Source: Escherichia coli (lineage in GTDB: Bacteria; Pseudomonadota; Gammaproteobacteria; Enterobacterales; Enterobacteriaceae). From it: a DNA stretch of 64,000 nucleotides. Numbering within the stretch: the first letter of the stretch is position 1; each line of letters starts with the position of its first letter. Both the position numbers and the translations under genes were made by a program. The notes under the pieces were generated by a model. It had not been told where the DNA came from. It worked only from the letters and a program-made list of their open reading frames with translations, and searched no databases. The DNA lies in the NCBI RefSeq assembly GCF_017348835.2, contig NZ_CP071375.1; one strand, written 5' to 3'. Shown in pieces: positions 5,074 to 44,610 of this stretch.

Positions 5074-5238
5074 ATGCCCTCCTGTCAGCACTCTGACTTA
5101 ACCGTGGATGCAAGTCTAAGCCTACGAAGATAAACTCTGTTTCGCAAGGTGACTATACCACACTCATTTCTGCAATATCAGCGCCGCAACTGCACGTATT
5201 CCGTTACAATGGCCTCCTGATTCGAAAGGAGTTTTCTT

Positions 5239-6939: not shown

Positions 6940-7070
6940 CAGAAACAAACGCAAAATTGCCTGATGCGCTGCGCTTATCAGGCCTACAGCATATAATGCA
7001 ACATTTTGAATTAGCACGATTTTGTAGGCCGGATAAGGCGTTCACGCCGCATCCGGCATTTTGTGCACGA
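6940..7070. repeat. REP / BIME palindromic elements
   Basis: gccggatgcggcgtgaacgccttatccggcctac-type palindromes. Confidence 0.5.
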
Positions 7071-7081
7071 GGCTGGCTTTA

Positions 7082-12522: not shown

Positions 12523-13546
12523 AACCCAGTACCTCTACTTTTACATGGTGTTCCTGCAGCCAGGCAATGGCGGCTTGCGTATCTTGTTGTGTGCCATGCA
12601 TTTCAGTCAGCATGATGCCGAACTTAACGCCACCGGCGTAATCCATCTGCGCGCTAATAATGTTGTTGTTGACGTTAAAACGACGCGCGGTTTCAGAAAG
12701 CAGTGGGGCATCGACCGATTGACCGGTAAACTCCAGACGCAGCATCGGCACGCAGTCAGTGAATGGCTCCGCTTGCAGACGTTCCTGGTAATCTTCCGGG
12801 ATATCCAGATGCAGGGTTGACTGAATAAACTTCTGCGCCAGCGGCGTTTTCGGATGTGAGAACACTTCACTTACCGTGTCCTGCTCGATCAGTTCGCCAT
12901 TGCTGATGACCGCCACGCAATCACAAATGCGCTTCACAACGTCCATTTCGTGAGTGATCAACAGAATCGTCAAACCCAGACGGCGGTTGATGTCTTTCAG
13001 CAGTTCGAGAATAGAACGTGTCGTTGCCGGGTCCAGCGCGCTGGTGGCTTCATCACACAGCAATACTTTGGGATTGCTGGCTAATGCACGGGCAATCGCC
13101 ACACGTTGTTTCTGCCCACCGGAAAGATTCGACGGGTAGCTATCATGCTTATCGCCAAGACCAACCAATGACAGCAATTCCGTCACGCGACGTTTGATCT
13201 CGTCTTTCGGTGTGTTGTCCAGCTCCAGCGGCAGAGCCACGTTGCCAAAAACAGTACGCGAAGAGAGCAGGTTAAAATGCTGGAAAATCATACCAATCTG
13301 GCGGCGAGCTTTGGTCAACTCGGATTCTGACAGCGTGGTCAGTTCCTGTCCATCGACCAGCACGCTACCCTCGGTTGGGCGCTCCAGCAGGTTTACACAA
13401 CGTATAAGCGTACTCTTACCCGCGCCTGAGGCCCCGATAACGCCATAAATTTGTCCAGTTGGCACATGCAGGCTGACGTTGTTCAACGCCTGGATGGTGC
13501 GGGTGCCCTGGTGGAACACTTTGGTGATATTCGAAAGTTTTATCAT
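12515..13546 (-). CDS. metN: D-methionine ABC transporter ATPase
   Basis: Walker [10 protein letters not shown]; ABC signature LSGGQKQR; 343 aa. Confidence 0.9.
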
Positions 13547-13636
13547 TGAATATTTATTATCGTCATTAAGTTAGTCGTGGCATTTCGAATGCCTGAAACG
13601 GGCAACGCCGTCAATGAAATGGATGTTAAGGCATCC

Positions 13637-13644
13637 AGACGTCT
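13637..13644. promoter_or_regulatory. Candidate MetJ box (AGACGTCT) in the metNIQ promoter region
   Basis: Exact 8-mer agacgtct upstream of metN; only one clear box seen. Confidence 0.35.
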
Positions 13645-13733
13645 AAATCAATCAGGTTTATGCGAAGAGCACTTTCTTGCAGGTCGAAACATGCGATACT
13701 AGCGCCACATGCCTTATTAAGGAGCTATAAAAG

Positions 13734-14306
13734 GTGGCGAAGAGCGTACCCGCAATTTTTCTTGACCGTGATGGCACCATTAATGTCGATCACGGCTATG
13801 TCCATGAGATCGACAACTTTGAATTTATCGACGGTGTTATTGACGCCATGCGCGAGCTGAAAAAAATGGGCTTTGCGCTGGTGATAGTAACCAACCAGTC
13901 TGGCATTGCTCGCGGTAAATTTACTGAAGCACAGTTTGAAACGCTGACCGAGTGGATGGACTGGTCGCTGGCGGACCGCGATGTCGATCTGGATGGTATC
14001 TATTATTGCCCGCATCATCCGCAGGGTAGTGTTGAAGAGTTTCGCCAGGTCTGCGATTGCCGCAAACCACATCCGGGGATGCTTTTGTCAGCACGCGATT
14101 ATTTGCATATTGATATGGCCGCCTCTTATATGGTGGGCGATAAATTAGAAGATATGCAGGCAGCGGCTGCGGCGAACGTGGGAACAAAAGTGCTGGTGCG
14201 TACGGGTAAACCTATTACACCTGAAGCAGAAAACGCGGCAGATTGGGTGTTAAATAGCCTGGCAGACCTGCCGCAAGCGATAAAAAAGCAGCAAAAACCG
14301 GCGTAA
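13734..14306 (+). CDS. gmhB: D-glycero-D-manno-heptose 1,7-bisphosphate phosphatase
   Basis: 190 aa ORF; HAD motif FLDRDGT. Confidence 0.85.
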
Positions 14307-28179: not shown

Positions 28180-28256
28180 GGAGCGGTAGTTCAGTCGGTT
28201 AGAATACCTGCCTGTCACGCAGGGGGTCGCGGGTTCGAGTCCCGTCCGTTCCGCCA
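28180..28256 (+). tRNA. aspV: tRNA-Asp (GTC)
   Basis: Identical in sequence to the tRNA-Asp at 19965-20041. Confidence 0.95.
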
Positions 28257-28387: not shown

Positions 28388-29434
28388 TTACTCCAGCGCA
28401 TCCCATTTCTCCAGCAGTTCTACTGGAATTTCATTTATTACCTCCGAGAAGCGTTTTCCGACCAGGCGTTCTGCCTGGCGCAGCAAAGGAATGGACGGGC
28501 TGCTCGGTTCGCTGTGCTCAAACCAGCGACGGATAACACGCAGGCGTTCCAGCGCGTCGTTCCGGTCGCGGATCTGCCGGGGTTCTGCGCCGGTCATCGG
28601 TGATATTTCCTCCGAGATACGCACCGGTAGCGCAATCTGCTCTGCCTGCATCTGTTCAGTATGATCGATGGTGGCGTTCTCCGGCTGTTCAGCCTGTGGT
28701 TGTGGCAGGATCTCCGGCGTGGTGCTCTGCACTGCTCCCGGCAACAGGGCTAGCAGTTGCGTCAGACGGGAGAAGTCCGGTGCCTGGTCATTCAGCGTTT
28801 CACGCGCATGGTGTTGCAGCCGCTCAGTGGTCTCTGCTGCCTGGCGAAAGGCATCCAGCGGCAGTGTGCCGCGCGCTTCCAGGTCTGCCAGTTGCTGGCG
28901 TACCGATTCTGGTGCCAGCGCATCCGCCGGACGTAATGCAGATAGCGAACGCTCCACATCCCGTACCTGAAGGCGCATGACAGCATTATTTGACAGTGTA
29001 ATGCCACGAATATCCGCCATTACGCCTTCGTGGTCCAGCAACGCCGCCAGCGCGTTACTGCGTGCCACCGCAGCATCTTCGGCGGTGATATCTTCAGTCG
29101 CGAGCAGTTGAGGATGGATGGCGTCCGGGTACGTGGCGCACAACGTTTCCAGCAGCGTGAGCGTCTCCGCCAGTCCCCTGGCACCGGCCTGCTGGATACG
29201 GCAGCGCAGCAGGACAACCAGAATGCGGATATCTTTGCTGCGCATCAGCAGACGATGGGCGTCCCGCTCAAGCTCCGCCCAGTTAATGTTTTCAGGCGTA
29301 CTGACAAAATCGCCATATTGCGCTTCTTCACGCGGTGCGGCGCGGGTGAACAGCAGCAGGTATTCCGGATCGTACTCCAGATCCGGGCCGCAGGGGCATT
29401 CCGCCGAAATTGGGTCAGACAGGAATATTTCCAT
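28388..29434 (-). CDS. tssA: T6SS TssA-family protein (ImpA N-terminal domain)
   Basis: 348 aa; N-terminal LSDPISAECPCGPDLEYDPEYLL resembles the ImpA_N domain; adjacent to tssG/tssF. Confidence 0.55.
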   Translation of the reverse strand: MEIFLSDPISAECPCGPDLEYDPEYLLLFTRAAPREEAQYGDFVSTPENINWAELERDAHRLLMRSKDIRILVVLLRCRIQQAGARGLAETLTLLETLCATYPDAIHPQLLATEDITAEDAAVARSNALAALLDHEGVMADIRGITLSNNAVMRLQVRDVERSLSALRPADALAPESVRQQLADLEARGTLPLDAFRQAAETTERLQHHARETLNDQAPDFSRLTQLLALLPGAVQSTTPEILPQPQAEQPENATIDHTEQMQAEQIALPVRISEEISPMTGAEPRQIRDRNDALERLRVIRRWFEHSEPSSPSIPLLRQAERLVGKRFSEVINEIPVELLEKWDALE

Positions 29435-29444
29435 TTAATTATCC

Positions 29445-30473
29445 TCAGTGCGCCAGGTAGTGTTCTGGTTCGAAAATCATGCCCGTCACCGGGTTGTCGT
29501 GCATGGCTTTACCCGCCCATGCGGTCCAACCCAGTTGGTACGGACCACCGGTAACAGCCGGAGGGGCGGCGTGGGGCTTTAGCTGTAGCTCAATTTCCCA
29601 GCAGTATTCAAAACCACTAAAGGCGCGGACCAGTTCGGTCAGGACAGGCAGGTTATTGCCGCCAGGCAGAAAACGTCGGTAATCCTCCAGCGTCAGCGGG
29701 CCGATAACCAGCCGGAACTTATACTGCATGTCCGGCACGGCCTGGCCGATAAGTGCACCATTGCCAATAACGGAAGAGGGGGCAGGCATCCCCAGCCGGG
29801 TTATCTCATCGTCCGCCACGGTTATCCAGTGCAGCACATACTCTTGTATCCGGAAAGATACACCGAAATAGTGCGCCAGCGTGGTGGCCAGACCGTCCGG
29901 ATTGCGGGACTCACGCACCAGATGGGCCGATGCCGCCAGACGAGCGTGATCCGGCAACGGGCTGTCGGCACTCTCCCGCAAATCCTGCCCGCTGAGGCTG
30001 GCGACATAAAAGGCAAAGCGGTCATGTTGCGGTTTATCCAGACCGCCCCCGGCGGACTGGGCGCTGCGCCATGCCTGGTAAAACTGCGTCAGCCAGCGGT
30101 GATGAAAAAGATCAGAAAAACGGGTTAGCGTCGGGTCTCTTCGGCTTTCAGTCCGGTTGCGCGCCAGTTCGCTGTAGTGCAGCGGCAGTGGACCGTTCGG
30201 CCCCCACAGCCCGAGACTGTACAAACTGATGTGCAAGCGCTCTTCCTGCCAGCTCACACTGGCGATTTCCCGTGGCGCAAAGGTCAGCGCGGGCGTTTGT
30301 CCGAGGCGAAATTTTTCTATCCGTGGTTGCCAGGTGTTGCCCGCCGGAACGCGACACAACTGCACATCAACGCGGCGCATCAGGTTCAGAAAACCGTAAC
30401 GCCAGGGGGTTTCCTGCGCCTGAGTGAAATCGTTGCTCATACGCTTCCCCGCTGTCCCGCCCTGACAGGCCAA
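29445..30473 (-). CDS. tssG: T6SS baseplate protein TssG
   Basis: 342 aa ORF immediately downstream of tssF with overlap; size and position typical of TssG. Confidence 0.55.
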   Translation of the reverse strand: MACQGGTAGKRMSNDFTQAQETPWRYGFLNLMRRVDVQLCRVPAGNTWQPRIEKFRLGQTPALTFAPREIASVSWQEERLHISLYSLGLWGPNGPLPLHYSELARNRTESRRDPTLTRFSDLFHHRWLTQFYQAWRSAQSAGGGLDKPQHDRFAFYVASLSGQDLRESADSPLPDHARLAASAHLVRESRNPDGLATTLAHYFGVSFRIQEYVLHWITVADDEITRLGMPAPSSVIGNGALIGQAVPDMQYKFRLVIGPLTLEDYRRFLPGGNNLPVLTELVRAFSGFEYCWEIELQLKPHAAPPAVTGGPYQLGWTAWAGKAMHDNPVTGMIFEPEHYLAH

Positions 30474-32320
30474 GTCATAATTTTACCGCGCTGCATGCTG
30501 TGCAGCGTCATCTGCGAGAAGGTATTAATGGAAACATGGCGGGCGATATAGTGTTCCAGCACCAGGCCGAACAGATACGGACTGATGCCGGAAAAACCTT
30601 CTTCATCCACCGTCAGTTCACAACTGACGCCACGCCCATAGGCCAGTAGTCCGGAACCGGGCAGACGGCGGGTGACCGGGGTCGTTTTACAACCAATCAG
30701 GCTGCGCACCTGGCGCGATTGCGGACTGTCATGAGCAGGAATAAACAGGTTCAGCAGATCTCGCAACGCCTGGCCGCCGGTACGGTGATCCAGATCGGCC
30801 AGCGGCAGATAATTAAAAGATAACTGGCGGATCAACCGCCATGCCATCTCACGTTCAGCCAGCGGGGGCTGCGGCGAGCGTGGCGGGCGGATAAGCCCTA
30901 CGCCCGCCACCGGGATGGCCGCATCCACGGTTAGATCGTCCCGGCCATTGCGGGCAATAAGACAGGGCAGATCGCGGTTAGTGACCATGGCCGTGATGGT
31001 GATGTGGCGCAGATTTTCCGGGTACGGCGCTTCATACTGGTCAACCAGCGACAGGAACACTTCCGAGCCCGTATAGGGGGTACGGGTGCCGTAACGGCGG
31101 GCGTTTTCTGATAAGCGGCGGGGCTCCCGGTGCAGGGAAAAATAACGTCCGTGATTGCCTTCATCATTATTGCGGGTGTGGTAGAGCGGGCGAAAGGCCA
31201 TCTTCCGTGTGGTGTCGGTTTCCAGCCCTTCCACTTCCTGGACCGAGAACACCTCATAATCCAGCGGATGGGTTCTGTCCACCACCAGATGCTGTTCCGT
31301 CGTGCTGTGCGTGACATCGATCCGGGCGGTGACGCGGGGAAACAGGTTGATAACCGGGGTACAGAACAGGCTGAACTGTGCCGCATTTGTCTGGTGGATC
31401 AGCCAGTCCGGCGGCAGGCGGTTCAGCAGGATAACAATCTCCGCCACGCCACCGTCAATTTTCTGTAATCCGGCAGACAGGCCTGTCGGGGTGAAAAAAT
31501 AGAAGCGTTCCGGACAGGCAAAATATTCATGCAGCAGGTTATGACCGTGAAACACGTTCCACGCCAGCGGCAGCAGCCCCTGATCCGGCTCCAGGCCTTC
31601 GTACATAACGGGCTGTTGCAGATTCACATCCAGCGCGCCGTCAAAATGTCCCGGAATGCCAGCCAGGGTCGCGATGGCGCTGGTATGTAGAAGTTCTAAC
31701 AGGTGTGAGGCCGTACGCTCCTCGCCGCAGAGATAAAACGGCAGCCTATCCAGTCCTGCAAGCTGACTGAACGTTAGTTCACCAAAGGTGCGCAGGGTAA
31801 TACGCAGCGCCCCGGCGACGTGAATGTTGGCCGGCAGGTAGCGATGCAGGGCAGGCATATCCGGTGGCGCGGCGGTCAGTCGCGCCTCTTCGATGGCGAG
31901 CGGCCACAGCGTTACATCCTGGCTGCTGCGAAACTGGCAGGCAGTGCTTTCGCCTTCCGGAATGGCGGAGAAAAAGGCCGTGTCGCGCGGGACGGTAAAT
32001 CCTTTCGCCAGATCGCCTTCTTCCGTATCGGGATGCAACTGCGCCACGCTCATTGAGGGCGTGGGTGTGACGTAATTGGGGCTGACCACTTCCAGCAGGC
32101 GCTGGGTGAAACGGGGGAATTCAGCGTCAATTTTTAGCTGCGTGCGGGCGGTCAGGAAGCTGAAGGCCTCGACCATTCGCTCTACATACGGATCGGCAAT
32201 ATCCGTTCCCTGCATGCCCAGCCGGGCGGCGACTTTGGGATGACGGGCGGCAAATTCGGCTCCCGTTTCCCGCAGATAGCTTAGTTCGCGGTTGTAGTAT
32301 TCCAGTAGCCGTGGATCCAT
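30437..32320 (-). CDS. tssF: T6SS baseplate protein TssF
   Basis: 627 aa; N-terminus [36 protein letters not shown] matches the TssF (ImpG/VasA) N-terminal signature as recalled. Confidence 0.75.
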
Positions 32321-32425
32321 CGGTCTCTCTCTGAATTAAAAAAACGTAATGCGGCTCTGCTCCATATCCAGCGCGCTACGTACGCGGGTTCAGCCGTAAC
32401 CGATGTATCTGGTGCCGCCGAGGAG

Positions 32426-34591
32426 ATGGCAGAACAGGCAGCGGCGGACCTGTTTGGTGCGTTGCCGGAACCGTCAGGTCTGGTTAAAGCCGCAGTAGCT
32501 GCTGCGCAGGCTGCCGCTGCAGCAGCAGGGATCCCGGATATGGCTGGTGCAGTTCAGGATGCGGCGGCGTCGATTGCTGCCGGTGGACCGGGGGCGCATA
32601 ACGTCACAGTAAGTGGTAGTGCGGTGCCGCCGCAGCTGCTTTTGTTTGCAGGCATGAATGGTTCGGAAGGGCTTGGAAACCTGTTTTCCTACACAGTACA
32701 GCTTAAAACCCCGGATACCCTGAACCTCGGATATGTCTCCCCCGCAGCCAACCTGCCGCTCAAGCCGATGGTGGGCAAAGACCTGTGCGTCAGTATCGAA
32801 CTGGACGGCGGCGGCAAACGGCATATCAGCGGGCTGGTGACAGCGGCGCGGGTGGTGGGCTATGAGGGCCGCTCGGTAACGTATGAATTACGCCTTGAGC
32901 CGTGGCTGAAACTGCTGACCCATACCAGCGACTACAAAGCGTTCCAGAATAAAACCGTGGTGGATATTCTCGATGAAGTACTGGATGAATATTCCTTTCC
33001 GGTGGAAAAGCGGCTGGTGGAAAATTATCCACCCCGCGCCTGGCAGGTGCAGTATGGTGAAACCGACTTCGATTTCATCCAGCGCCTGATGCAGGAATGG
33101 GGGATTTACTGGTGGTTTGAGCACAGCGAGAACAGCCACACGCTGGTGCTGGCGGATGCCATCAATGGTCATAAAGCGTGCCCTGACTCGCCGCTGGTGG
33201 AGTGGCACCAGGAAGGGCTGAAACTGGACAAGGAATTTATCCACACCATTACGGCCAGTGAGAGGCTGCGTACTGGAAAGTGGGTGATGGACGATTTTGA
33301 TTTTATGAAGCCTCGTTCGCTGCTTAAAAGTACCGTGGCTAGTCCGCGTGATACCGGTCATGCTGAATACGAGCATTATGAATGGCCTGGTGATTACTTC
33401 ACTACGGGCGAAGGCGAGATGCTGACGCGCATTCGTATGGAAGCGCAGCGCAGCCCCGGCAGCCGGGCACATGGGGCAGGTCATATCCGCACCCTCATGA
33501 CGGGTTACACCTTTACGCTGATGAATCATCCAACGGCAGAGGTCAACCAGGAATACCTACTGGTACAGACCACGCTGTTTTTACGGGATAATGCGCAGCA
33601 CAGCGGTCAGGAGCAGCATTTTACCTATGTCACCACGTTTGAACTGCACCCCACCAGCGAAGTTTACCGCCCACAGCGAACCCTAAGCAAACCCCACACC
33701 AAAGGCCCGCAGAGCGCCATCGTCACCGGCCCGGCAGGGCAGGAAATCTGGACGGATAAATATGGCCGGGTGAAGGTGCAGTTTGGCTGGGACCGTTACC
33801 TGTACGATGCGGAACAGCCGTACACGCCGGTGGCCGCCATCACGGGGCGCGGAGAGAGCCGGAAAATCTGGTATTACCACACGGACCTGACGGGCACGGT
33901 ACAGGAGGTGACCGCGCCGGACGGGACGCTGGTGTGGGCGGGCTATCAGGCGGGATTTGGTGAAAACCGGGGCGACATCAGCAACAGCGGGGCGTACTTT
34001 GAGCAGCCGCTGCGGCTGCCGGGGCAGTATTATGATGAAGAGACGGGGCTGCACTATAATCTGTTCAGATATTATGCGCCGGAGTGCGGGAGGTTTATCA
34101 GTCAGGATCCGATTTCGATCCGTGGGGGGCTGAATCTTTACCGGTATGCGCCTAATCCGCTGAGATGGATTGATCCGCTTGGATTAGACTGGAATTATCA
34201 TTTAACAGATAGTGATGGTAAGGTTTATTATCATGGACGTGCAAGTGATAATGCGTCAATGGAAGATGTTGCCCGTCGTCACAGCAATACAACAGGAGCT
34301 GATAAGGCAAGATTTGGAGAAACAGATACCATGACACGAATAACTGAGCCGGGTACGCCAAAATTAACAGCACAAGGTGTGGAAGGTATTGCCATAGGTG
34401 ATAATACTATCGGGCGAAGAGCTGATAACGGTAATAGGGGTCGGGGTAATAATATTCGGGGTGTTAATCCCAATGCAACCAATGCTACTGAAAAACTAAA
34501 TGCGGGTAAAGAATTTTTAAATGGACGAATACCAAGTGAAATGACTGGTGAAACATTGACAGGTAAGGAGTATTTTGAATCAAAATGTTAA
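32426..34591 (+). CDS. Chimeric protein: VgrG N-terminal (gp27-like) region fused in frame to an Rhs C-terminal core segment and a C-terminal toxin domain
   Basis: VgrG-like up to KVQFGWDR, then [21 protein letters not shown]...[27 protein letters not shown], which is nearly identical to 38200-38586 in the downstream Rhs; then an AT-rich unique tail. Confidence 0.7.
33795..34185 (+). repeat. Rhs 3' core segment, copy inside the VgrG chimera
   Basis: Near-identical nucleotide sequence to the Rhs core 3' ends at 38200-38586, 40930-41319 and 43520-43907. Confidence 0.8.
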
Positions 34592-35463
34592 AATTAACCG
34601 ATGTAAATAAAAATGCATTAAGAATACTTAAAAAATATAACGTGCTGGCAGAAGGTGACATAATAAGAGGTCATCCATTAAGTGAGCGGGATTTGAAATA
34701 TGTTGAGGCGCATTGTATTACAACTGAAGAACGAGCCTTTTTAAATGAAAAAGGTTTGGGGTTCGGATTTATTTCTGTGACTCATGATGAAGCATTAAGA
34801 GATTCGTTTACATATTTTAAATCTTCTAATAAAAATGATGTGACAGCTTCTTTTCTGGTGAGCCTGAGTAGTGCCAGATTAGACTACAGAAGTGGATTGT
34901 CTGCATTTGCAATTATGCAAACAATGCCGATGCATGGCTTTGAACCAAATCAGGCTTCTTTTTGTAAAGTATGTTCCGCAGAAAAATATAAAAAGCATTT
35001 TGATCTAACCAGCTTAAATCAGACTCGTTTCTTTAGTGGTTCTCTAGCAGTCTTTAAAACTCCTTATGAAATTTCTTTTTTTCTGGAGCAACAATCAAAA
35101 TTGGAAGTCGTTCAGCCAACCGAAAAAGATTTCTCTATCTTTAATGCGATTTTGAAAATAATTGTTGACGCAGAATCTGGCGAAAAACTGACATCAATAA
35201 TTAAAAAAATTAGAGCGATTGATGGCTTCAGGATAACTACAGATCAGTGTCGATGTCTTCTGGAAACGCTGGGATTTTGTGGGATTCTGGAAACGAAGGA
35301 ACACAAAGGGTATCTGACTTACTTTACTAATCCTGGACTGGCTCCGAGTAAATCTCATAGTTCTAACTGGGCCTATCCGGTTGATTTCTGGACCGGAGGG
35401 GATGGAATAAATCGCGAAGCGTTAAAATTCTGGTTTGGTGAATATAAAGAAATTGTTATCTGA
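34585..35463 (+). CDS. Putative immunity protein for the chimera's C-terminal toxin
   Basis: 292 aa AT-rich ORF; start overlaps the toxin stop (ATGTTAA), which suggests translational coupling. Confidence 0.45.
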
Positions 35464-35557: not shown

Positions 35558-35887
35558 TTACGGTTGAATAAGATCGTCAATAAACACCGCACCGTCAACG
35601 GTACGCAACCAGCGTGGCGCTTTCAGTTTTGCCGCAAAGAACCAGACCAGTTCACAAAGCAGCCCCGTCAGGGGTTGTTCCATTTTAGATCCCTGCGCCT
35701 GTTCCGTCAGGAGCTGGAGTAATACCTCGCAATATTCACACAATTGCTCAGGATCCAGGTCAAAGTGCGGAAATGAGGCAGGCAGGTCGTCGAGTGTCAG
35801 GCTGTCTACCAGATGGGGTGGAATAGGATCGTTCAGCGTGGGAGACAGAATGGCGATACAGGCGCGAAGTCGTCCGAACAACGCCAT
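35558..35887 (-). CDS. Hypothetical protein, possibly the distal part of a frameshifted gene that starts near 36021
   Basis: 109 aa ORF; upstream on the same strand a 36-codon ORF with RBS ggaggt ends in a stop just before it. Confidence 0.2.
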   Translation of the reverse strand: MALFGRLRACIAILSPTLNDPIPPHLVDSLTLDDLPASFPHFDLDPEQLCEYCEVLLQLLTEQAQGSKMEQPLTGLLCELVWFFAAKLKAPRWLRTVDGAVFIDDLIQP

Positions 35888-36097
35888 TTTCAGCGCCGGA
35901 TCGTGACACTCTATAAGGGTTCAGCGAAGCGATCGCAGTGATCGGCCAGGTCTGTGAAATCGGTGGCAGAACTGAAAGGAATGGACAATAAATCATAATC
36001 AGGGGTGAGGACTGTAGCCATAAGGCAACCTCCGATAAGTAGGCGTTAAAACCACCACCGAAGAGACCAATCTTACGGGTGGTGGAACCGGGCGGAG

Positions 36098-38932
36098 TTG
36101 GTCTTACCGGCCTTATCGGATACCGGCGCATCTTTCGATGCCACCGCCCGGCCCACCATTGAGGTACAGCCGTGCGTGCAACACAAAAAAGACGCTGGCG
36201 CGTCATGTGTCGCCGATAAGACTTATTCAGGAGACCAATCCCGACGCCTGATTTTGCAGACGCGGCATAACGATACAACGATCGCGAAATGGCGACAAAC
36301 CCCTTTCCCGGAAGGCGGCTCGCAAAATCAGAAATATCACAGGGAAAGACAGAGCGCCGCAACGCGGCGGGATGTACCGCTTCACGTACAACGAAAACCA
36401 TTTTCCGGTAGCGGTGGAACTCCCCGGCGAACGCAGGTAACGCTGGAATACGACACCCTGAGCCGGGTGGTGAAAGAGACGGACCCGGCAGGCCGGGTGA
36501 CACAGACGCAGTGGAACGGCAGTTTTGCTGAAATCACGCGCCGGGCACTGGATGACGACCACGTATGGAAGGCGGATTACAACGAACACGGCCAGGTGAT
36601 ACGGGAGACGGACCCGGAAGGGCGCGTCACGCGCTACGGGTATGATGAACAGGGGCTGGCGGTCAGCCGCACGGATGCGCGGGGCGGCGAGGCTGCGCTG
36701 GCGCATGATGCGCGCGGCCAGCTGAGGCGTTACACCGACTGTTCAGGGCGTGCCACGGGTTATGAATACGATGAAGACGGCAACCTGACGGTGGTGACGG
36801 ACGCGGAGGGGAAAACGGTACGTATCCGCTATAACCGTCTGGGACTGCCGGAGACGGTAAATCATCCCGGTAAACAGCAGGACCGTTACACGTGGAACGC
36901 GCTGGGGTTACTGAGCAGCCACCGTCGCATCACAGGCAGTGTGCAGTCCTGGCAGTATACGCCGCGCGGTCTGCTGGCGCTCCACGTAGATGAAGAGAAA
37001 CGGGAGACGCGCTGGCATTATACCGCGGAGGGATGGATTGCCAGTCTGAGCAACGGCAACGGAGCGCTTTACCGGTTCAGTCACGATGCGGACGGACGGC
37101 TGACGGGAGAACAGCGCCCGGACGGTCTGATACGGATGTTTGTGCTGAATGCGGGCGGGTATCCGGTCATCATCCAGACGCAGGGTACAGAAGGCGGGGG
37201 GCGCAATGAACAGCAGGAGCGTGACGCGCTGGGCCGCCTGCTGCGCAGTGACACGCAGCACAGTACACGGACCTTCAGCTACAACCGTCTTGACCAGATA
37301 ACGGAAGTGACGCTCACCCCGACGAAAGAAGGGGAACGGCTGCACCACATGCAGGCGGACACGGTGCGCTTTGCGTATGACCGCAGCGGCTGGCTGACGG
37401 CAGAGCACAGCGTGCACGGCAGCATAAAATATCAGCGTGACGCGCTGGGCAATCCCACCGATATCACGTTGCCGGACGGGCAGCATCTCAGTCATCTTTA
37501 CTACGGCAGCGGACATCTGCTCCAGACGGCACTGGACGGTATCACGGTCAGCGAATATGAGCGTGACAGTCTGCACCGTCAGGTGATGCGCACGCAGGGG
37601 AAACTGGCGACGTTCAGCGGCTACAACGCCGACAACCGGTTAAGCTGGCAGCGCAGTCTGCCAGGTGGCAGCCAGAATCCACAGCAGACCGGTAACCCCC
37701 CGGCGCAGAACGACAGCGTGACGGCGCGGGACTATATCTGGAATGCGGACGGTGAGGTCGGCGGCATCAATGACAAACTGCGCGGTTGCCTGGTGTTCAG
37801 CTATGACCGCAGCGGCTGGCTGACCAGTCGCACGGGTCAGATGTACGACCATGACCATTATTATTACGACAAAGCGGGCAACCTGCTGACGGACGAGTAT
37901 CAGAGCGCGGTGATGGATAACCGCCTGCCGGGCTACGGGCGTGACCGTTACCGCTATAACGAATGGGGCGAACTGACAGAGCGCAGGGACCAGCAACTGG
38001 AGTGGAATGCGCAGGGCCAGTTAACGCGGGTCATCAGCAGCAACAGCGAGACGCGGTATCAGTATGATGCGCTGGGCAGGCGTATCAGCAAGGCGACCAG
38101 CAATCTCCATACCGACCGGGGAGAACGAAGCCGGACAACGTTTGTGTGGGAAGGGGTCCGGCTGTTGCAGGAGACAACGTGGCAGGGAAAGCGGACGTAC
38201 CTGTACGACGCGGAACAGCCGTACACGCCGGTGGCCGCCATCACCGGGCGCGGAGAGAGCCGGAAAATCTGGTATTACCACACGGACCTGACGGGCACGG
38301 TACAGGAGGTGACCGCGGCGGACGGGACGCTGGTGTGGGCGGGCTATCAGGCGGGGTTCGGAGAAAACCGGGGCGACATCAGCAACAGCGGGGCGTATTT
38401 TGAACAGCCGCTGCGGCTGCCGGGGCAGTATTATGATGAAGAGACGGGGCTGCACTATAATCTGTTCAGATATTATGCGCCGGAGTGCGGGAGGTTCGTA
38501 AGCCAGGATCCGATTTCGATCCGGGGTGGTCTGAATCTTTACCGGTATGCGCCGAATCCGATTACTTGGATCGATCCGTGGGGATTGGCAAAGGGGGATT
38601 ATGGTAAAATGCCTACGTTCCCTGGTTGGCAGAAACATCATAATATTCCACAAAATATGGCTACTCATTCGGCAATTGTTGACTCTGGATTTGATATACA
38701 TAATAGTCGTAACATTACAACCTTGCCAAAAACTGGAAGTATAGATACTGCCAGAACAGTGCACAGTGGAATGCACACAGGAGATTATGACAGGATGGTA
38801 AAAAATGCTTTAGATCAAATTGACTCGTTGAATGCTTCCCCTGAGATCAAAAAAATGCATATAGAAGCCTTATCTGATGATATTGGCAATAAATTGAGAA
38901 CAAAACAAATTACGTTAAATGCTGCATGTTGA
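36098..38932 (+). CDS. Rhs / YD-repeat protein, 5'-truncated and frameshifted near 36425, with a C-terminal toxin domain after DPWGL
   Basis: YD repeats (RYxYD, YxYDxxG); frame switch at gaacgcaggtaacgctg; core ends ...NPITWIDPWGL, followed by an AT-rich tip. Confidence 0.7.
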   Translation: MVLPALSDTGASFDATARPTIEVQPCVQHKKDAGASCVADKTYSGDQSRRLILQTRHNDTTIAKWRQTPFPEGGSQNQKYHRERQSAATRRDVPLHVQRKPFSGSGGTPRRTQVTLEYDTLSRVVKETDPAGRVTQTQWNGSFAEITRRALDDDHVWKADYNEHGQVIRETDPEGRVTRYGYDEQGLAVSRTDARGGEAALAHDARGQLRRYTDCSGRATGYEYDEDGNLTVVTDAEGKTVRIRYNRLGLPETVNHPGKQQDRYTWNALGLLSSHRRITGSVQSWQYTPRGLLALHVDEEKRETRWHYTAEGWIASLSNGNGALYRFSHDADGRLTGEQRPDGLIRMFVLNAGGYPVIIQTQGTEGGGRNEQQERDALGRLLRSDTQHSTRTFSYNRLDQITEVTLTPTKEGERLHHMQADTVRFAYDRSGWLTAEHSVHGSIKYQRDALGNPTDITLPDGQHLSHLYYGSGHLLQTALDGITVSEYERDSLHRQVMRTQGKLATFSGYNADNRLSWQRSLPGGSQNPQQTGNPPAQNDSVTARDYIWNADGEVGGINDKLRGCLVFSYDRSGWLTSRTGQMYDHDHYYYDKAGNLLTDEYQSAVMDNRLPGYGRDRYRYNEWGELTERRDQQLEWNAQGQLTRVISSNSETRYQYDALGRRISKATSNLHTDRGERSRTTFVWEGVRLLQETTWQGKRTYLYDAEQPYTPVAAITGRGESRKIWYYHTDLTGTVQEVTAADGTLVWAGYQAGFGENRGDISNSGAYFEQPLRLPGQYYDEETGLHYNLFRYYAPECGRFVSQDPISIRGGLNLYRYAPNPITWIDPWGLAKGDYGKMPTFPGWQKHHNIPQNMATHSAIVDSGFDIHNSRNITTLPKTGSIDTARTVHSGMHTGDYDRMVKNALDQIDSLNASPEIKKMHIEALSDDIGNKLRTKQITLNAAC
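36848..38586 (+). repeat. Rhs conserved core repeat, copy 1
   Basis: About 1.7 kb, near-identical to 39583-41319; 3' part near-identical to 42465-43907. Confidence 0.85.
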
Positions 38933-38947
38933 ATAACGAGGGAATAT

Positions 38948-39538
38948 ATGATTTATTTTTTATCTGATAAAAAAAATACCTTCGGGTTGTTGCATTATGA
39001 TCATAAAACTTCGATCGACTACACAGTATTTAATGAGGGGGTTAGCATAACAGGAATAGACATTAATATTAAATATACATCAAACAATAAAAATGATTTA
39101 AAACGGCTCGAAAAGTGTAACATTATAGAAACGACAGGTCCGACATTGATAAATAATAAGATTAGACATGTTTTTGAAAAATATGCAAGCAATGCGGTTG
39201 AATTTTTTGATGTAGACATTAACGATGATATAGATTTATCAAGGAAGTTTTGTGCGATTAATTTATTATGGGTCTTACCATGTTGTGATATGGAAAAGAG
39301 TGAATTTACATTAAGTAATTTCGATCTTGCCAATCCTAACTATATGTTTATGTATAAAGTTCTAAAAAATGATATTAATAGAGAGGTGGATATATTTCGG
39401 TGTAAGGAGCAGCATACTGAAATTGTTGTAAGTGAAGGAGTTAAGCAAGCATGTATGGACGCGGGAATTAAAGGATTGCGTTTTTGTACGGCTATTGATT
39501 TAACTCCAAAAAATAGATCTGAGTGTGTATTTATTTAA
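38948..39538 (+). CDS. Putative immunity protein for the toxin tip of the Rhs at 36098-38932
   Basis: 196 aa AT-rich ORF immediately after the toxin. Confidence 0.45.
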   Translation: MIYFLSDKKNTFGLLHYDHKTSIDYTVFNEGVSITGIDINIKYTSNNKNDLKRLEKCNIIETTGPTLINNKIRHVFEKYASNAVEFFDVDINDDIDLSRKFCAINLLWVLPCCDMEKSEFTLSNFDLANPNYMFMYKVLKNDINREVDIFRCKEQHTEIVVSEGVKQACMDAGIKGLRFCTAIDLTPKNRSECVFI

Positions 39539-39547
39539 TATATATGT

Positions 39548-41656
39548 ATCACGCGGTGCGGGTATGACGAACAGTTCCTGCCGGAGACGGTCAGCCACCC
39601 CGGTAAACAGCAGGACCGTTACACCTGGAACGCACTGGGGTTACTGAGCAGCCATCGTCGCATCACGGGCAGTGTGCAGTCCTGGCAGTATACGCCGCGC
39701 GGGATGCTGGCGCGCCATACGGATGAAGAGAAACGGGAGACGCGCTGGCAGTACACCCCGGAAGGGCTGGTTGCCAGTCTGAGCAACGGCAACGGAGCGC
39801 TTTACCGGTTCAGTCACGATGCGGACGGACGGCTGACGGGAGAACAGCGCCCGGACGGTCTGATACGGATGTTTGTGCTGAATGCGGGCGGGTATCCGGT
39901 CATCATCCAGACGCAGGGTACAGAAGGCGGGGGGCGCAATGAACAGCAGGAGCGTGACGCGCTGGGCCGCCTGCTGCGCAGTGACACGCAGCACAGTACA
40001 CGGACCTTCAGCTACAACCGTCTTGACCAGATAACGGAAGTGACGCTCACCCCCACGGAAGAAGGGGAACGGCTGCACCACATGCAGGCGGACACGGTGC
40101 GCTTTGCGTATGACCGCAGCGGCTGGCTGACGGCAGAGCACAGCGTGCACGGCAGCATAAAATATCAGCGTGACGCGCTGGGCAATCCCACCGACATCAC
40201 GTTACCGAACGGGCAGCACCTCAGCCATCTTTACTACGGCAGCGGGCATCTGCTCCAGACGGCACTGGACGGTATCACGGTCAGTGAATATGAGCGTGAC
40301 AGTCTGCACCGTCAGGTGATGCGCACGCAGGGGAAACTGGCGACGTTCAGCGGCTACAACGCCGACAACCGGTTAAGCTGGCAGCGCAGCCTGCCAGGTG
40401 GCAGCCAGAACCCACAGCAGGCCGGTAACCCCCCGGCGCAGAAAGACAGCGTGACAGCGCGGGATTATATCTGGAACGCAGACGGTGAAGTCGGCGGCAT
40501 CAATGACAAACTGCGCGGTTGCCTGGTGTTCAGCTATGACCGCAGCGGCTGGCTGACCAGTCGCACGGGTCAGATGTACGACCATGACCATTATTATTAC
40601 GACAAAGCGGGCAATCTGCAGACGGATGAGCATCAGGGAGCGGTGCCGGATAACCGCCTGCCGGGCTACGGGCGTGACCGCTACCGCTATAACGAATGGG
40701 GCGAACTGACAGAGCGCAGGGACCAGCAACTGGAGTGGAATACGCAGGGCCAGTTAACGCGGGTCATCAGCAGCAACAGCGAGACGCGGTATCAGTATGA
40801 TGCGCTGGGCAGGCGTATCAGCAAGGCGACCAGCAATCTCCATACCGACCGGGGAGAACGAAGCCGGACAACGTTTGTGTGGGAAGGGTTCCGGCTGTTG
40901 CAGGAGACAACGTGGCAGGGAAAGCGGACATACCTGTACGACGCGGAACAGCCGTACACGCCGGTGGCGGCCATCACGGGGCGCGGAGAGAGCCAGAAAA
41001 TCTGGTATTACCACACGGACCTGACGGGCACGGTACACGAGGTAACCGCGCCGGACGGGACGCTGGTGTGGGCGGGCTACCAGGCGGGATTTGGCGAAAA
41101 CCGGGGCGACATCAGCAACAGCGGGGCGTACTTTGAGCAGCCGCTGCGACTGCCGGGGCAGTACTTTGACGAAGAAACAGGGCTGCATTACAATCTGTTC
41201 AGGTATTATGCGCCGGAGTGCGGGAGGTTCGTAAGCCAGGATCCGATAGGGTTGCTTGGTGGGCTGAACTTATATGCTTATGCGCCTAATCCGCTGTCAT
41301 GGATCGATCCGTTAGGTTTGACTCCATGTGCAAATGGGGGGAATGCTAAAAAACATGGTGGCACAGGACATAATAATTTTATTGATAATCTTATTGCGGA
41401 TGCTCGCAGTCAGGGTGCTACAAATATCAGGAAAAACCAATGGCAGGTAGATGTTAATGGAAATGTTGTTGGTAAAAATAGACCGGATGTTCAATTTGAT
41501 TTAAATGGTAAACATTATAATATTGAGGTTGATACAACAATAAAAGGCAGCGTTGGTCACCAAAATACTATACCTACACTTGATCCCAACTCAAGAAATA
41601 CATTTTGGCTAATTGATGACTTAGGGAATATTTTAAATGGCCACTCAACCATCTGA
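39548..41656 (+). pseudogene. Orphan 5'-truncated Rhs fragment with a distinct C-terminal toxin domain
   Basis: Rhs homology starts abruptly right after the upstream immunity gene; ORF track gives 39674..41656; core ends DPLGL, then a unique tip. Confidence 0.65.
39583..41319 (+). repeat. Rhs conserved core repeat, copy 2
   Basis: Near-identical to 36848-38586. Confidence 0.85.
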
Positions 41657-42221
41657 TAATAAAAAATTAGTGTTTGCTGTAGTGAACAGTGATTTTAATG
41701 ATATAGAAAGAACTATCCATAATGGATTGAACTGGCCGAGTGAACCAATAAGTAGTCGAAAACTTATTGAGGAAATACACTTGACTATTCAACGTGGTGG
41801 GGTCTTGCCGTCCGAGGGGGTTTTCTATTATCCGTGTATAAATGACAGCAAATTAATTTTTCTGTCTAATTTATCTGATGGATGGGACTCTTTACTTTAT
41901 TGCCTGTCAAAACAGAATAAATCTAGCTATCTACTGTTTAGGTTATTGATGGGGGAATACCCTCTGATGGAAATGAGTTTTATAGAGTCAGGGAAAACAA
42001 TACGTTTAATTAGAGTGATAAAAGAAAATAAATGGATTTTTTATGAGGTCGGGGAACCGTTATGGTTTGAAGAAAAGGAAAACTATTCAAAAAGAAGAAT
42101 CGCAGATAGAATTACTTATGATCTCTTACTCTCCTATTCACGGAAAAATGGCATTGACTTTGATTCCCCCGCATTTTTTAAAACGGAAAAAGAATCACTA
42201 TGGTTGAATGAAATACGATAG
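41637..42221 (+). CDS. Putative immunity protein for the second orphan toxin
   Basis: 194 aa AT-rich ORF overlapping the toxin 3' end. Confidence 0.4.
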   Translation: MATQPSDNKKLVFAVVNSDFNDIERTIHNGLNWPSEPISSRKLIEEIHLTIQRGGVLPSEGVFYYPCINDSKLIFLSNLSDGWDSLLYCLSKQNKSSYLLFRLLMGEYPLMEMSFIESGKTIRLIRVIKENKWIFYEVGEPLWFEEKENYSKRRIADRITYDLLLSYSRKNGIDFDSPAFFKTEKESLWLNEIR

Positions 42222-42232
42222 TTTATTTAAAT

Positions 42233-42271
42233 AAAAAGCCGGAAAAGAAATTAAACTTTCCCGGCTTTTTT
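42233..42271. terminator. Bidirectional hairpin terminator
   Basis: aaaaagccggaaaag...ctttcccggctttttt; homologous to the hairpin at 44613-44650. Confidence 0.5.
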
Positions 42272-42276
42272 ATTAT

Positions 42277-42465
42277 TTAACTCTCGTTCAGCACACTAAA
42301 CATCCCGTCCCGCATCCCCTTAACTGCCTGTTTAACCTGATAAAGCTCCCTGCGCAGTTCCTGTACTTCGTTGTTATCCGCAAGCAGGATCAGACATCCC
42401 TCCGAGATCTTCACGGTAACGCCCGTGCCGATCTCAAATCCCGCTTCTCTCAGCCATTTGGCGCT
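42277..42465 (-). pseudogene. SymE-like toxin gene, 5'-truncated by the adjoining Rhs fragment
   Basis: C-terminal 60 aa AKWLREAGFEIGTGVTVKISEGCLILLADNN... resemble SymE; the upstream part of the ORF is antisense Rhs sequence. Confidence 0.5.
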
Positions 42466-43907
42466 GAATGCGGGCGGGTTTCCGGTCATCATCCAGACGC
42501 AGGGCACAGAGGGCGGGGTGCGTAATGAGCGGCAGGAGCGTGATGCGCTGGGCCGCCTGCTGCGCAGTGACACGCAGCACAGTACACGGACCTTCAGCTA
42601 CAACCGTCTTGACCAGATAACGGAAGTGACGCTCACCCCCACGGAAGAAGGGGAACGGCTGCACCACATGCAGGCGGACACGGTGCGCTTTGCGTATGAC
42701 CGCAGCGGCTGGCTGACGGCAGAGCACAGCGTGCACGGCAGCATAAAATATCAGCGTGACGCGCTGGGCAATCCCACCGACATCACGTTACCGAACGGGC
42801 AGCACCTCAGCCATCTTTACTACGGCAGCGGGCATCTGCTCCAGACGGCACTGGACGGTATCACGGTCAGTGAATATGAGCGTGACAGTCTGCACCGTCA
42901 GGTGATGCGCACGCAGGGGAAACTGGCGACGTTCAGCGGCTACAACGCCGACAACCGGTTAAGCTGGCAGCGCAGCCTGCCAGGTGGCAGCCAGAACCCA
43001 CAGCAGGCCGGTAACCCCCCGGCGCAGAAAGACAGCGTGACAGCGCGGGATTATATCTGGAACGCAGACGGTGAAGTCGGCGGCATCAATGACAAACTGC
43101 GCGGTTGCCTGGTGTTCAGCTATGACCGCAGCGGCTGGCTGACCAGTCGCACGGGTCAGATGTACGACCATGACCATTATTATTACGACAAAGCGGGCAA
43201 TCTGCAGACGGATGAGCATCAGGGAGCGGTGCCGGATAACCGCCTGCCGGGCTACGGGCGTGACCGCTACCGCTATAACGAATGGGGCGAACTGACAGAG
43301 CGCAGGGACCAGCAACTGGAGTGGAATACGCAGGGCCAGTTAACGCGGGTCATCAGCAGCAACAGCGAGACGCGGTATCAGTATGATGCGCTGGGCAGGC
43401 GTATCAGCAAGGCGACCAGCAATCTCCATACCGACCGGGGAGAACGAAGCCGGACAACGTTTGTGTGGGAAGGGTTCCGGCTGTTGCAGGAGACAACGTG
43501 GCAGGGAAAGCGGACATACCTGTACGACGCGGAACAGCCGTACACGCCGGTGGCGGCCATCACGGGGCGCGGAGAGAGCCAGAAAATCTGGTATTACCAC
43601 ACGGACCTGACGGGCACGGTACACGAGGTAACCGCGCCGGACGGGACGCTGGTGTGGGCGGGCTACCAGGCGGGATTTGGTGAAAACCGGGGCGACATCA
43701 GCAACAGCGGGGCGTACTTTGAGCAGCCGCTGCGGCTGCCGGGGCAGTATTATGATGAAGATACGGGGCTGCACTATAATCTGTTCAGATATTATGCGCC
43801 GGAGTGCGGGCGGTTTATCAGTCAGGACCCGATAGGGCTGGCGGGAGGAATAAACCTATATGCTTATGCGCCTAATCCGCTAAGTTATATTGATCCTCTT
43901 GGGCTTT
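42465..43907 (+). repeat. Rhs conserved core repeat, copy 3
   Basis: Near-identical to 37146-38586 and 39880-41319. Confidence 0.85.
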
Positions 43908-44335
43908 GTAAATTAAGGGGAAGCGATGGGCGCTACAGAAGTGCACAGAATATTCAGGAAGAAATAGGCGGCCTACCCAATTTTGCAGGAAAAACTCCAG
44001 GAGAAATACGACAAACTTTGCGTAATCGAGGTTATTCGTCGGTACAAGCGTATAGTGGAGGAGAGGTCTGGACAAAAGCATTACCTGACGGAAATACTGT
44101 TGCAGTGAGGCTTGATCCGGCAAATCCTCGCTCACCTTCACATTATGCTGATGCTGTACCTCATGCTCATATTGAAACAGTTCCAACATCCAGTGTTTCT
44201 AATGGGAATTATCGCCCGCGAGACGTGACTGGCAGGCATACTGCCACTGGTGGGGTTTCTGATCGAGGAACAAATCCGAATCATAACGCTGATGTTTACA
44301 TTCCAATGTCTCCGGGACGATTCCCATATGATTAA
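42465..44335 (+). pseudogene. Orphan 5'-truncated Rhs fragment with a third distinct C-terminal toxin domain
   Basis: Rhs homology starts at gctgaatgcgggcggg (matches 37139 in copy 1); core ends DPLGL at 43907, followed by a unique tip. Confidence 0.65.
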
Positions 44336-44346
44336 TGTGAGGTTTT

Positions 44347-44610
44347 ATGAATATCCGAAATCAATATAATGAAGCCTTAAATAAATTAGAAGTTGATGTT
44401 AATGATGGTTTGAGAGATTTAATAAACATATATTGTGTGGCTATTGATTCTTTTGAAAATGATATCGTTGACTCGATTGCTTTATACGTGATTGATATGG
44501 GAAATAAAGATACTTGTCGATATCTACAAGAAGTCTTATCAGAGAATGAAGATCCTTATTTAGTAAAAGAATTTAATGCATGGATAAAAGAAATTAAGAA
44601 AAAATATTAA
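44347..44610 (+). CDS. Putative immunity protein for the third orphan toxin
   Basis: 87 aa AT-rich acidic ORF immediately after the toxin. Confidence 0.4.
   Translation: MNIRNQYNEALNKLEVDVNDGLRDLINIYCVAIDSFENDIVDSIALYVIDMGNKDTCRYLQEVLSENEDPYLVKEFNAWIKEIKKKY

What the first reader, a model, noticed from the sequence alone, without database searches (positions are those of the whole stretch)
34186..35463. Unassigned toxin tip and 292 aa cognate ORF on the VgrG-Rhs chimera
The roughly 135 aa after DPLGL ([22 protein letters not shown]...[11 protein letters not shown]...) has no motif I can place in a known toxin family. It is followed by an overlapping AT-rich 292 aa ORF, the usual layout for an immunity gene. 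This is a candidate uncharacterised toxin/immunity pair.
Basis: inference. Interest (0 to 1): 0.65.

Follow-up and report, generated by a model that had tools for sequence, protein, structure and literature searches.

The report
Orphan GIY-YIG-like Rhs toxin/immunity cassette
This is a real, conserved bacterial toxin/antidote gene pair (a DNA-cutting GIY-YIG-type toxin tip and an unnamed 292-aa immunity protein), but in this E. coli strain it sits on a dead fusion gene left by two deletions that destroyed the type VI secretion system needed to fire it.

Summary
A 134-aa, low-GC tip follows the Rhs DPLGL motif, and its stop codon overlaps by 7 nt (ATGTTAA) the start of an intact 292-aa ORF. The window is the E. 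coli aspV T6SS-1 island; the sequence is 100% identical to pig strains PE164 and F2_81.

The 292-aa ORF belongs to an unnamed, multi-phylum family. Its model is very confident (pLDDT 95) and has no solved structural relative. In 9 of 11 independent chromosomal loci a tip-family sequence lies directly upstream, including full-length PAAR-Rhs effectors in E. coli, Massilia and Collimonas and a full-length Rhs in Chitinophaga. Elsewhere it is an orphan in polyimmunity clusters. It is therefore the cognate immunity protein.

The "VgrG-Rhs chimera" is a deletion scar. One deletion (~23 kb) removed most T6SS genes. A second fused vgrG codon 503 to what was already an orphan Rhs cassette.

Verdict: a new member of a known kind, disarmed in this strain. 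Interest is modest.

The parts
28180..28256 (+). tRNA-Asp (aspV), the insertion site of the E. coli T6SS-1 island
   Evidence: ARAGORN; PGAP annotation of the identical PE164 locus
28388..32320 (-). Remnant T6SS-1 genes tssA (ImpA family), tssG and tssF. These are the only core genes left.
   Evidence: ORFs; PGAP names in L001; comparison with the intact locus L007
32387..32387 (.). Deletion junction 1. The 3' tail of tssE is joined to vgrG nucleotide 97. About 23.1 kb is lost (tssE, tagJ, tagK, tssH, tssBC, tae4/tai4, hcp, tssJKLM, tagF and others).
   Evidence: blastn of the window against intact locus L007: 31703-32387 matches L007 45001-44317, and 32387-33799 matches L007 21178-19766; gene list of L007
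32426..33799 (+). VgrG fragment (gp27-like hub and the start of the gp5 OB fold, about codons 46-503 of a 737-aa VgrG). The first ATG is an internal VgrG Met. The upstream GAGGAG abuts the ATG with no spacer.
   Evidence: Pfam Phage_GPD at residues 81-389; TIGR03361 profile positions 7-391 of 513; PGAP calls it a pseudogene missing both N- and C-terminus; sequence
33797..33799 (.). Deletion junction 2 (3-nt overlap of the two alignments). vgrG nucleotide 1509 is fused to an Rhs core 390 nt before its end. This junction occurs in only 2 of 5426 complete E. coli genomes.
33800..34186 (+). Last ~130 codons of an Rhs core, ending in the DPxGL motif (DPLGL at 34172-34186). The upstream DPxGL-like motif reads DPISI here.
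   Evidence: NF041261 positions 1154-1261 of 1261 and TIGR03696; Pfam RHS; translation
34187..34591 (+). 134-aa C-terminal toxin tip, a divergent GIY-YIG/URI-fold nuclease domain. Invariant family residues in tip numbering are Y4, Y15, G17, R31, H32, R42, D47, G64, E66 and N88 (add 587 for ORF numbering).
34585..35463 (+). 292-aa cognate immunity gene (WP_053884616.1). Its start overlaps the toxin stop (ATGTTAA), suggesting translational coupling. Invariant residues are H67, H117, C127, C130 and a C-terminal SHSSxWxYPxDFW-type motif.

Best explanation
Window 34187-35463 is an orphan Rhs C-terminal toxin/immunity cassette. The 134-aa tip is a divergent member of the GIY-YIG (URI) nuclease superfamily. 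In intact relatives it forms the C-terminus of a prePAAR-PAAR-Rhs protein. By analogy with characterised Rhs effectors, that protein encapsulates the tip in the Rhs shell, releases it by autoproteolysis after DPxGL, and rides on VgrG with a DcrB/EagR chaperone. The T6SS then injects it into neighbouring bacteria, where it is inferred to cut DNA by the one-metal GIY-YIG mechanism (Tyr/Arg/Glu/Asn). The overlapping, probably translationally coupled 292-aa gene encodes the cognate immunity protein, inferred to bind and block the toxin in the producer's cytoplasm. In this strain (E. coli PE164/F2_81 type) the cassette is disarmed. One deletion (~23 kb) removed most T6SS-1 core genes. A second fused a truncated vgrG in frame to the tail of the orphan Rhs core, which produced the apparent 'VgrG-Rhs chimera'. 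The part still likely to function here is the immunity gene, which could protect against relatives that still fire this toxin. What is shown: the anatomy, the junctions, family membership, conserved pairing, and the fold of the predicted model. What is inferred: DNase activity, neutralisation by binding, and non-delivery in this strain.
Confidence: 0.72

Rival explanations
1. The 721-aa VgrG::Rhs-CT fusion is a functional 'evolved VgrG' specialised effector. The truncated VgrG hub would co-assemble with VgrGs of another T6SS in the genome and carry the GIY-YIG tip into prey.
For: The fusion is in frame and open over 721 codons. The gp27-like hub domain is complete. The toxin's catalytic residues and the immunity gene are intact. 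The identical fusion occurs in two separately deposited pig isolates.
Against: The fusion lacks VgrG codons 1-32, and its first ATG is an internal Met with no spaced RBS. It lacks the gp5 beta-helix spike from codon 504 onward, and it lacks EagR, PAAR and the Rhs shell. The adjacent T6SS-1 core genes are deleted, and the upstream DNA is a coding-sequence remnant of tssE/tssF on the other strand, so no native promoter remains. PGAP calls the VgrG part a pseudogene. The junction occurs in 2 of 5426 genomes.
Confidence: 0.06
2. The tip is a toxin with a different activity (for example an RNase, or a non-nuclease enzyme), and it only superficially resembles the small GIY-YIG alpha/beta fold.
Confidence: 0.15
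3. The 292-aa protein is not the immunity protein. It is instead an accessory factor, a second effector or an enzyme that merely travels with the toxin.
For: It is unusually large for an immunity protein. It has enzyme-like invariant residues (H67, H117, C127, C130, S260, W262, Y264). No known immunity family matches it.
Against: It always lies immediately 3' of the toxin, often with a 7-nt overlap. It is duplicated in tandem after one toxin. It persists as an orphan inside polyimmunity clusters without any toxin, in both Gram-negative and Gram-positive genomes. No other candidate immunity ORF follows the tip.
Confidence: 0.08

Closest known systems
Tox-URI1 / Tox-URI2 (URI = GIY-YIG fold) polymorphic-toxin nuclease domains of Zhang et al. 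2012 (PMC3482391)
   Same: These are also C-terminal toxin domains on Rhs proteins, delivered by T6SS among other routes and followed by an immunity gene. The Tox-URI1 signature 'Y, YxG, R, [RK]xxE, N' matches this family's consensus (Y4, Y15xG17, R31, VRGIEQ, N88).
   Different: No member matches Pfam Tox-URI2 (PF15653) or GIY-YIG (PF01541), 0 of 42. hhalign against a Cellulophaga Tox-URI2 domain finds nothing. In the window copy the [RK] of [RK]xxE is Gln (AQGVEG). The partner immunity protein is none of Imm9, 12, 14, 26, 39, 44 or 51. Membership of Tox-URI1 itself could not be tested because no model or alignment was available.
I-TevI catalytic domain and UvrC N-terminal domain (canonical GIY-YIG nucleases; PDB 1ln0, 1ycz)
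   Different: Identity is only 16-18%, with no significant sequence or profile similarity. Arg-His is adjacent rather than R-x3-H. There is a longer loop before helix 1 and a ~45-residue C-terminal extension ending in a conserved Cys. There is no DNA-binding domain.
PAAR-RhsA-GIY-YIG candidate effectors of Salmonella SPI-6 (PMC10469887, PMC11669294) and Nte4 of Neisseria cinerea (PMC8263058)
   Same: These are Rhs effectors with a GIY-YIG nuclease tip and a downstream immunity gene. The Salmonella SPI-6 locus has the same tssI-eagR-rhs gene module.
   Different: Their tips are recognised by InterPro/CDD GIY-YIG models, and the Salmonella ones are paired with a CdiI-like immunity protein. The present tip is invisible to those models and pairs with an unrelated 292-aa family.
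E. coli T6SS-1 vgrGO1-eagR-rhs-CT modules and orphan rhs-CT/immunity arrays (Ma et al. 2017, as reviewed in PMC6730261)
   Same: The same chromosomal island and architecture occur in intact strains (L008, L018, L007). The window also carries the usual downstream array of orphan Rhs-CT/immunity cassettes.
   Different: Here the vgrG C-terminus, eagR, the main rhs and nearly all T6SS core genes are deleted.

Membership tests
GIY-YIG (URI) nuclease superfamily | Core beta-beta-alpha-beta-alpha fold | tested here: met
GIY-YIG (URI) nuclease superfamily | 'GIY' Tyr and 'YIG' Tyr-x-Gly on the first two strands, 10-11 residues apart | tested here: met
   Y4, Y15 and G17 are invariant in 42 sequences, with a spacing of 11. 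hhalign pairs them with I-TevI Y6, Y17 and G19, although the score is not significant.
GIY-YIG (URI) nuclease superfamily | Conserved Arg on helix 1 and a metal-binding Glu on the following helix | tested here: met
   R31 (helix 25-34) and E66 (helix 59-71) are invariant. The correspondence to I-TevI R27 and E75 is by order and secondary-structure element only.
GIY-YIG (URI) nuclease superfamily | Conserved C-terminal Asn | tested here: inconclusive
   N88 is invariant but lies in the segment 77-91, which has pLDDT below 50.
GIY-YIG (URI) nuclease superfamily | Match to the family HMM (Pfam PF01541) | tested here: not met
   0 of 42 members match at E<=0.1. Profile searches against PDB sequences find no GIY-YIG chain.
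GIY-YIG (URI) nuclease superfamily | Metal-dependent endonuclease activity | not testable with these tools
   This requires an in vivo toxicity assay and an in vitro DNase assay.
Tox-URI2 (Pfam PF15653) | HMM match and the signature Y, KxG, [EQ] | tested here: not met
   There is no Pfam hit. hhalign against the Cellulophaga Tox-URI2 domain gives E 0.32. The motif here is YxG followed by RAS, not KxG.
Tox-URI1 (Zhang et al. 2012) | Signature Y, YxG, R, [RK]xxE, N on an Rhs or other polymorphic-toxin C-terminus | tested here: inconclusive
   The family consensus fits the signature. The window copy has Q in place of [RK]. No Tox-URI1 model or alignment was available.
T6SS Rhs effector (prePAAR-PAAR-Rhs with EagR and VgrG) | N-terminal PAAR, an Rhs YD-repeat shell, and adjacent eagR and intact vgrG | tested here: not met
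   The window ORF has only VgrG residues of about 46-503 plus the last 108 residues of the core. These features are present in relatives L008, L004 and L016.
T6SS Rhs effector (prePAAR-PAAR-Rhs with EagR and VgrG) | DPxGL boundary followed by a variable low-GC tip and an immunity gene | tested here: met
Named immunity families for URI toxins (Imm9, 12, 14, 26, 39, 44, 51; CdiI-like) | Pfam HMM match | tested here: not met
   0 of 52 members match at E<=0.001, and the only hit is a weak Imm19 match at E 0.098. There is no NCBIfam, PADLOC or PHROGs family.

The most novel reading that the evidence does not exclude
Probability: 0.2. Interest if true: 0.5.

Novelty: new member of a known kind. Interest (0 to 1): 0.3.

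Why it matters
It assigns a probable fold and activity (GIY-YIG DNase) to an Rhs tip family that all standard HMM libraries leave blank. It also identifies that family's cognate immunity family, which is widespread, unnamed and without a solved structure. Both could be turned into profile models to annotate "RhsA-CT unknown" effectors in Enterobacteria, Burkholderiales and Bacteroidota. The locus is also a clean example of T6SS decay: the weapon is deleted while an orphan toxin/immunity cassette, and in particular the immunity gene, is retained. None of this changes the current understanding of polymorphic toxin systems.

Tried and rejected
Sequence searches that led nowhere:
- Pfam, NCBIfam, PADLOC and PHROGs gave no hit for the tip or the ORF.
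- phmmer and hmmsearch of the tip, of two divergent relatives, and of profiles A1 and A2 against PDB sequences found nothing.
- hhalign of A2 against I-TevI alone and against a shallow I-TevI alignment was not significant. The last homologue search returned only 9 close I-TevI relatives, too few for a useful GIY-YIG profile.
- hhalign against a Tox-URI2 domain gave nothing.
- tblastn of the tip against phages found no match.
- The supplementary alignments of Zhang et al. are not held.

Hits rejected as chance:
- A weak PADLOC hit of the 292-aa ORF to HEC-02B (E 0.0016) was absent from 10 other family members.
- A Glyco_hydro_46 hit (E 0.023) appeared in one member only.

Other results:
- The promoter and terminator scan was no better than shuffled sequence.
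- I considered and rejected the reading of the fusion as a purpose-built specialised VgrG effector (see rivals).

Full report
**Observation.** The ORF at 32426-34591 (+, 721 aa) ends with ...[11 protein letters not shown] followed by [22 protein letters not shown]...[11 protein letters not shown]...ESKC*. DPLGL is encoded at 34172-34186, so the tip is 34187-34588, 134 aa. An intact 292-aa ORF (34585-35463) starts inside the toxin's last codons; ATGTTAA contains both the start and the stop. GC drops from about 0.6 in the Rhs core to 0.35-0.40 over the tip and ORF. Nucleotide similarity to other E. coli Rhs cores ends exactly at 34186-34191.

**Where the window comes from.** The region is 100% identical to the chromosomes of E. 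coli PE164 and F2_81, both from pigs. Only 2 of 5426 complete E. coli genomes carry this tip and ORF. It lies in the T6SS-1 island next to dnaQ and tRNA-Asp (aspV, 28180-28256), bounded by yafV.

I compared the window with an intact island (strain PapRG-06-5, locus L007). At window position 32387 the 3' tail of tssE is joined to vgrG nucleotide 97. About 23.1 kb is missing, covering tssE, tagJ, tagK, tssH, tssB/C, tae4/tai4, hcp, tssJ/K/L/M and tagF. Only tssA, tssG and tssF remain (28388-32320, minus strand).

At 33797-33799, vgrG nucleotide 1509 (codon 503) is joined to an Rhs core 390 nt before its end, with a 3-nt overlap of the two alignments. The ATG at 32426 is an internal VgrG methionine, and GAGGAG abuts it without a spacer. 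HMMs agree with this picture: the VgrG profile is covered only at positions 7-391 of 513, and the Rhs core only at positions 1154-1261 of 1261. PGAP annotates a VgrG pseudogene plus a 271-aa "RHS repeat-associated core" protein.

In another E. coli assembly (L018) the same tip and ORF (98.8% nt identity; immunity 99% aa) form an orphan cassette. It sits downstream of an intact VgrG (737 aa), DcrB/EagR, a main Rhs (1370 codons, different tip) and that Rhs's own immunity gene. The window's cassette was therefore already an orphan. A deletion of roughly 6.2 kb then fused it in frame to the truncated vgrG. The "VgrG-Rhs chimera" is a scar, not a designed effector.

**The tip.** No library places it:
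- Pfam, NCBIfam, PADLOC and PHROGs give no hit.
- PDB sequences give no hit.

A word-indexed search found 7 relatives. An exhaustive profile search of 1.84 billion representatives found 67 at E<=1e-3, of which 41 were at E<=1e-10. Almost all lie directly after DPxG[LW] at the C-terminus of Rhs proteins, and the full-length examples are 1100-1500 aa.

An alignment of 42 tips (A2) has ten invariant residues: Y4, Y15, G17, R31, H32, R42, D47, G64, E66 and N88. Their order is Tyr, 11 residues, Tyr-x-Gly, Arg(His) on the next helix, Glu on the following helix, then Asn. This is the catalytic signature of GIY-YIG/URI nucleases. It also fits the "Y, YxG, R, [RK]xxE, N" signature that Zhang et al. give for Tox-URI1 (PMC3482391); the family consensus reads VRGIEQ, while the window copy reads AQGVEG.

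- Eco29kI, T4 EndoII, SLX1 and HIGLE also appear among the top 17.

The caveats are real:
- Only 2 of the 5 AF2 models are confident.
- Residues 77-91, which include N88, are poorly modelled.
- No sequence-level method confirms the link: Pfam matched 0 of 42 members, PDB profile searches found nothing, and hhalign against I-TevI was not significant, though it aligned the expected residues.

I put the GIY-YIG-fold nuclease assignment at about 0.75.

**The 292-aa ORF.** It has 95 homologues at E<=5e-26 in Enterobacteria (E. coli, Citrobacter, Salmonella), Burkholderiales (Massilia, Collimonas), Methylomonas, Pseudomonas and Bacteroidota (Chitinophaga, Cellulophaga, Tenacibaculum, Flavobacterium, Aquimarina). 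All are "hypothetical" and none has a Pfam domain. None of 52 members matches Pfam at E<=0.001.

The alignment (A3) has invariant H67, H117, C127 and C130, which I infer could form a zinc site. It also has an almost invariant C-terminal block, [48 protein letters not shown].

**Is it the cognate immunity protein?** I built HMMs of the tip and the ORF and scanned six-frame translations of every fetched locus. A tip-family sequence lies directly upstream of the ORF family in 9 of 11 independent chromosomal loci:

| Locus | Organism | What precedes the ORF-family gene |
|---|---|---|
| window | E. coli PE164 type | orphan tip on the fusion ORF |
| L008 | E. coli | VgrG, DcrB, prePAAR-PAAR-Rhs (1385 aa); tip 82% and immunity 79% identical to the window |
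| L004 | Massilia | prePAAR-PAAR-Rhs (1422 aa), followed by two tandem paralogues of the ORF |
| L016 | Collimonas | Rhs (1463 aa), next to tssF/G/H |
| L005 | Chitinophaga | Rhs (1376 aa) |
| L002 | Cellulophaga | orphan tip |
| L012 | Tenacibaculum | two decayed tip/ORF pairs |
| L013 | Methylomonas | tip fragment, with an IS element inserted between it and the ORF |
| L015 | metagenome contig | tip remnant |

The exceptions are orphan copies in clusters of known immunity families:
- In Flavobacterium the neighbours are Imm26, Imm51 and SUKH.
- On a Niallia plasmid the neighbours are DUF2716, SMI1/KNR4 and DUF4304.
- In Pseudomonas ovata the copy stands without a recognisable toxin.

The 7-nt toxin/ORF overlap is conserved in E. 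coli, Massilia and Collimonas. Tip and ORF divergence co-vary across five pairs (r = 0.76). This is the standard comparative-genomic signature of a toxin/immunity pair, and I put the assignment at about 0.85.

**Mechanism.** In intact relatives the protein is a prePAAR-PAAR-Rhs effector. By established knowledge of Rhs effectors, the tip is enclosed in the YD-repeat shell and released by autoproteolysis at DPxGL. The effector is mounted on VgrG with the DcrB/EagR chaperone and fired by the T6SS. This part is inferred by homology to characterised Rhs effectors. Inside the target cell the GIY-YIG tip is expected to nick or cut DNA using a single metal ion held by Glu/Asn, with Tyr and Arg in catalysis; this too is inferred. 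The producer is protected by the co-translated 292-aa protein (inferred).

In this window the delivery parts are gone. The most plausible residual function is the immunity gene, which could protect against kin that still deliver this toxin, as L008-type E. coli can.

**Comparison with known systems and novelty.** URI/GIY-YIG toxins on Rhs are an established class:
- Zhang et al. 2012 defined Tox-URI1 and Tox-URI2.
- PAAR-RhsA-GIY-YIG candidate effectors are described in Salmonella SPI-6 (PMC10469887, PMC11669294).
- Nte4 of Neisseria cinerea carries a GIY-YIG domain (PMC8263058).
- Recent Stenotrophomonas, Dickeya and Pectobacterium surveys also list them.

This clade differs in two ways. It is invisible to the existing HMMs, and it is paired with an unnamed immunity family that has no solved structural relative. 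The E. coli vgrG-eagR-rhs-CT module and its orphan arrays are also known (PMC6730261). The finding is therefore a new member of a known kind. Its annotation value is real but its conceptual surprise is limited, and in this strain it is a decayed, disarmed copy. Interest: 0.3.

Noticed in passing
window 28388-33799: The E. coli T6SS-1 island is decayed. A ~23.1-kb deletion (junction at 32387) removed tssE through tagF and the first 96 nt of vgrG, leaving only tssA, tssG and tssF. Both deletion junctions occur in only 2 of 5426 complete E. coli genomes (PE164 and F2_81, pig isolates).
   Followed up: yes
window 36098-44610: An array of further orphan Rhs-core fragments with their own tips and putative immunity genes lies downstream. 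The first is an AHH nuclease tip (38609-38932) with an Imm11 gene (38948-39538). The second is a tip at about 41320-41656 (…DPLGLTPCANGGNAKKHGG…) with a 194-aa ORF (41637-42221). The third is a tip at about 43905-44335 (…DPLGLCKLRGSDGRY…) with an 87-aa ORF (44347-44610). The last two tips and their partner ORFs have no NCBIfam family, so they are additional unassigned candidate pairs. A SymE-family toxin gene lies antisense at about 42277-42492.
   Followed up: partly
window 35558-36021 (minus strand): A frameshifted hypothetical gene lies on the opposite strand just after the immunity gene. Intact 154-aa versions occupy the same position in other E. coli loci (L009/L010 at 8974-9438; L007 at 13273-13737). 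Its function is unknown, and it is conserved between the main rhs module and the first orphan.
   Followed up: no
window 34105-34120: The upstream DPxGL-like motif of the Rhs C-terminal region reads DPISIRGG here, whereas relatives have the usual DPIGLxGG. Whether this affects C-terminal autoproteolysis is unknown.
   Followed up: no
window 30561-30654 (minus strand): ARAGORN calls a 94-nt 'tRNA-His' inside the tssF coding sequence. It is absent from the RefSeq annotation of the identical locus and is probably a false positive.
   Followed up: no
L013 (Methylomonas) 7189-7671; L014 (Flavobacterium) 6973-7836; AFDB A0A1I1QHV1: Orphan copies of the 292-aa family repeatedly sit next to, and in one Ruminococcus protein appear fused with, Imm26 or Imm51. 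Zhang et al. 2012 link these two immunity families to Tox-URI1 toxins. This could be coincidence or could reflect clustering of anti-URI immunity genes.
   Followed up: partly
L002 (Cellulophaga) 4809-5670: Immediately upstream of the Cellulophaga orphan tip/immunity pair is another orphan cassette with a Pfam Tox-URI2 tip and Imm44. Two different URI-type toxin cassettes are therefore stacked in one array.
   Followed up: no
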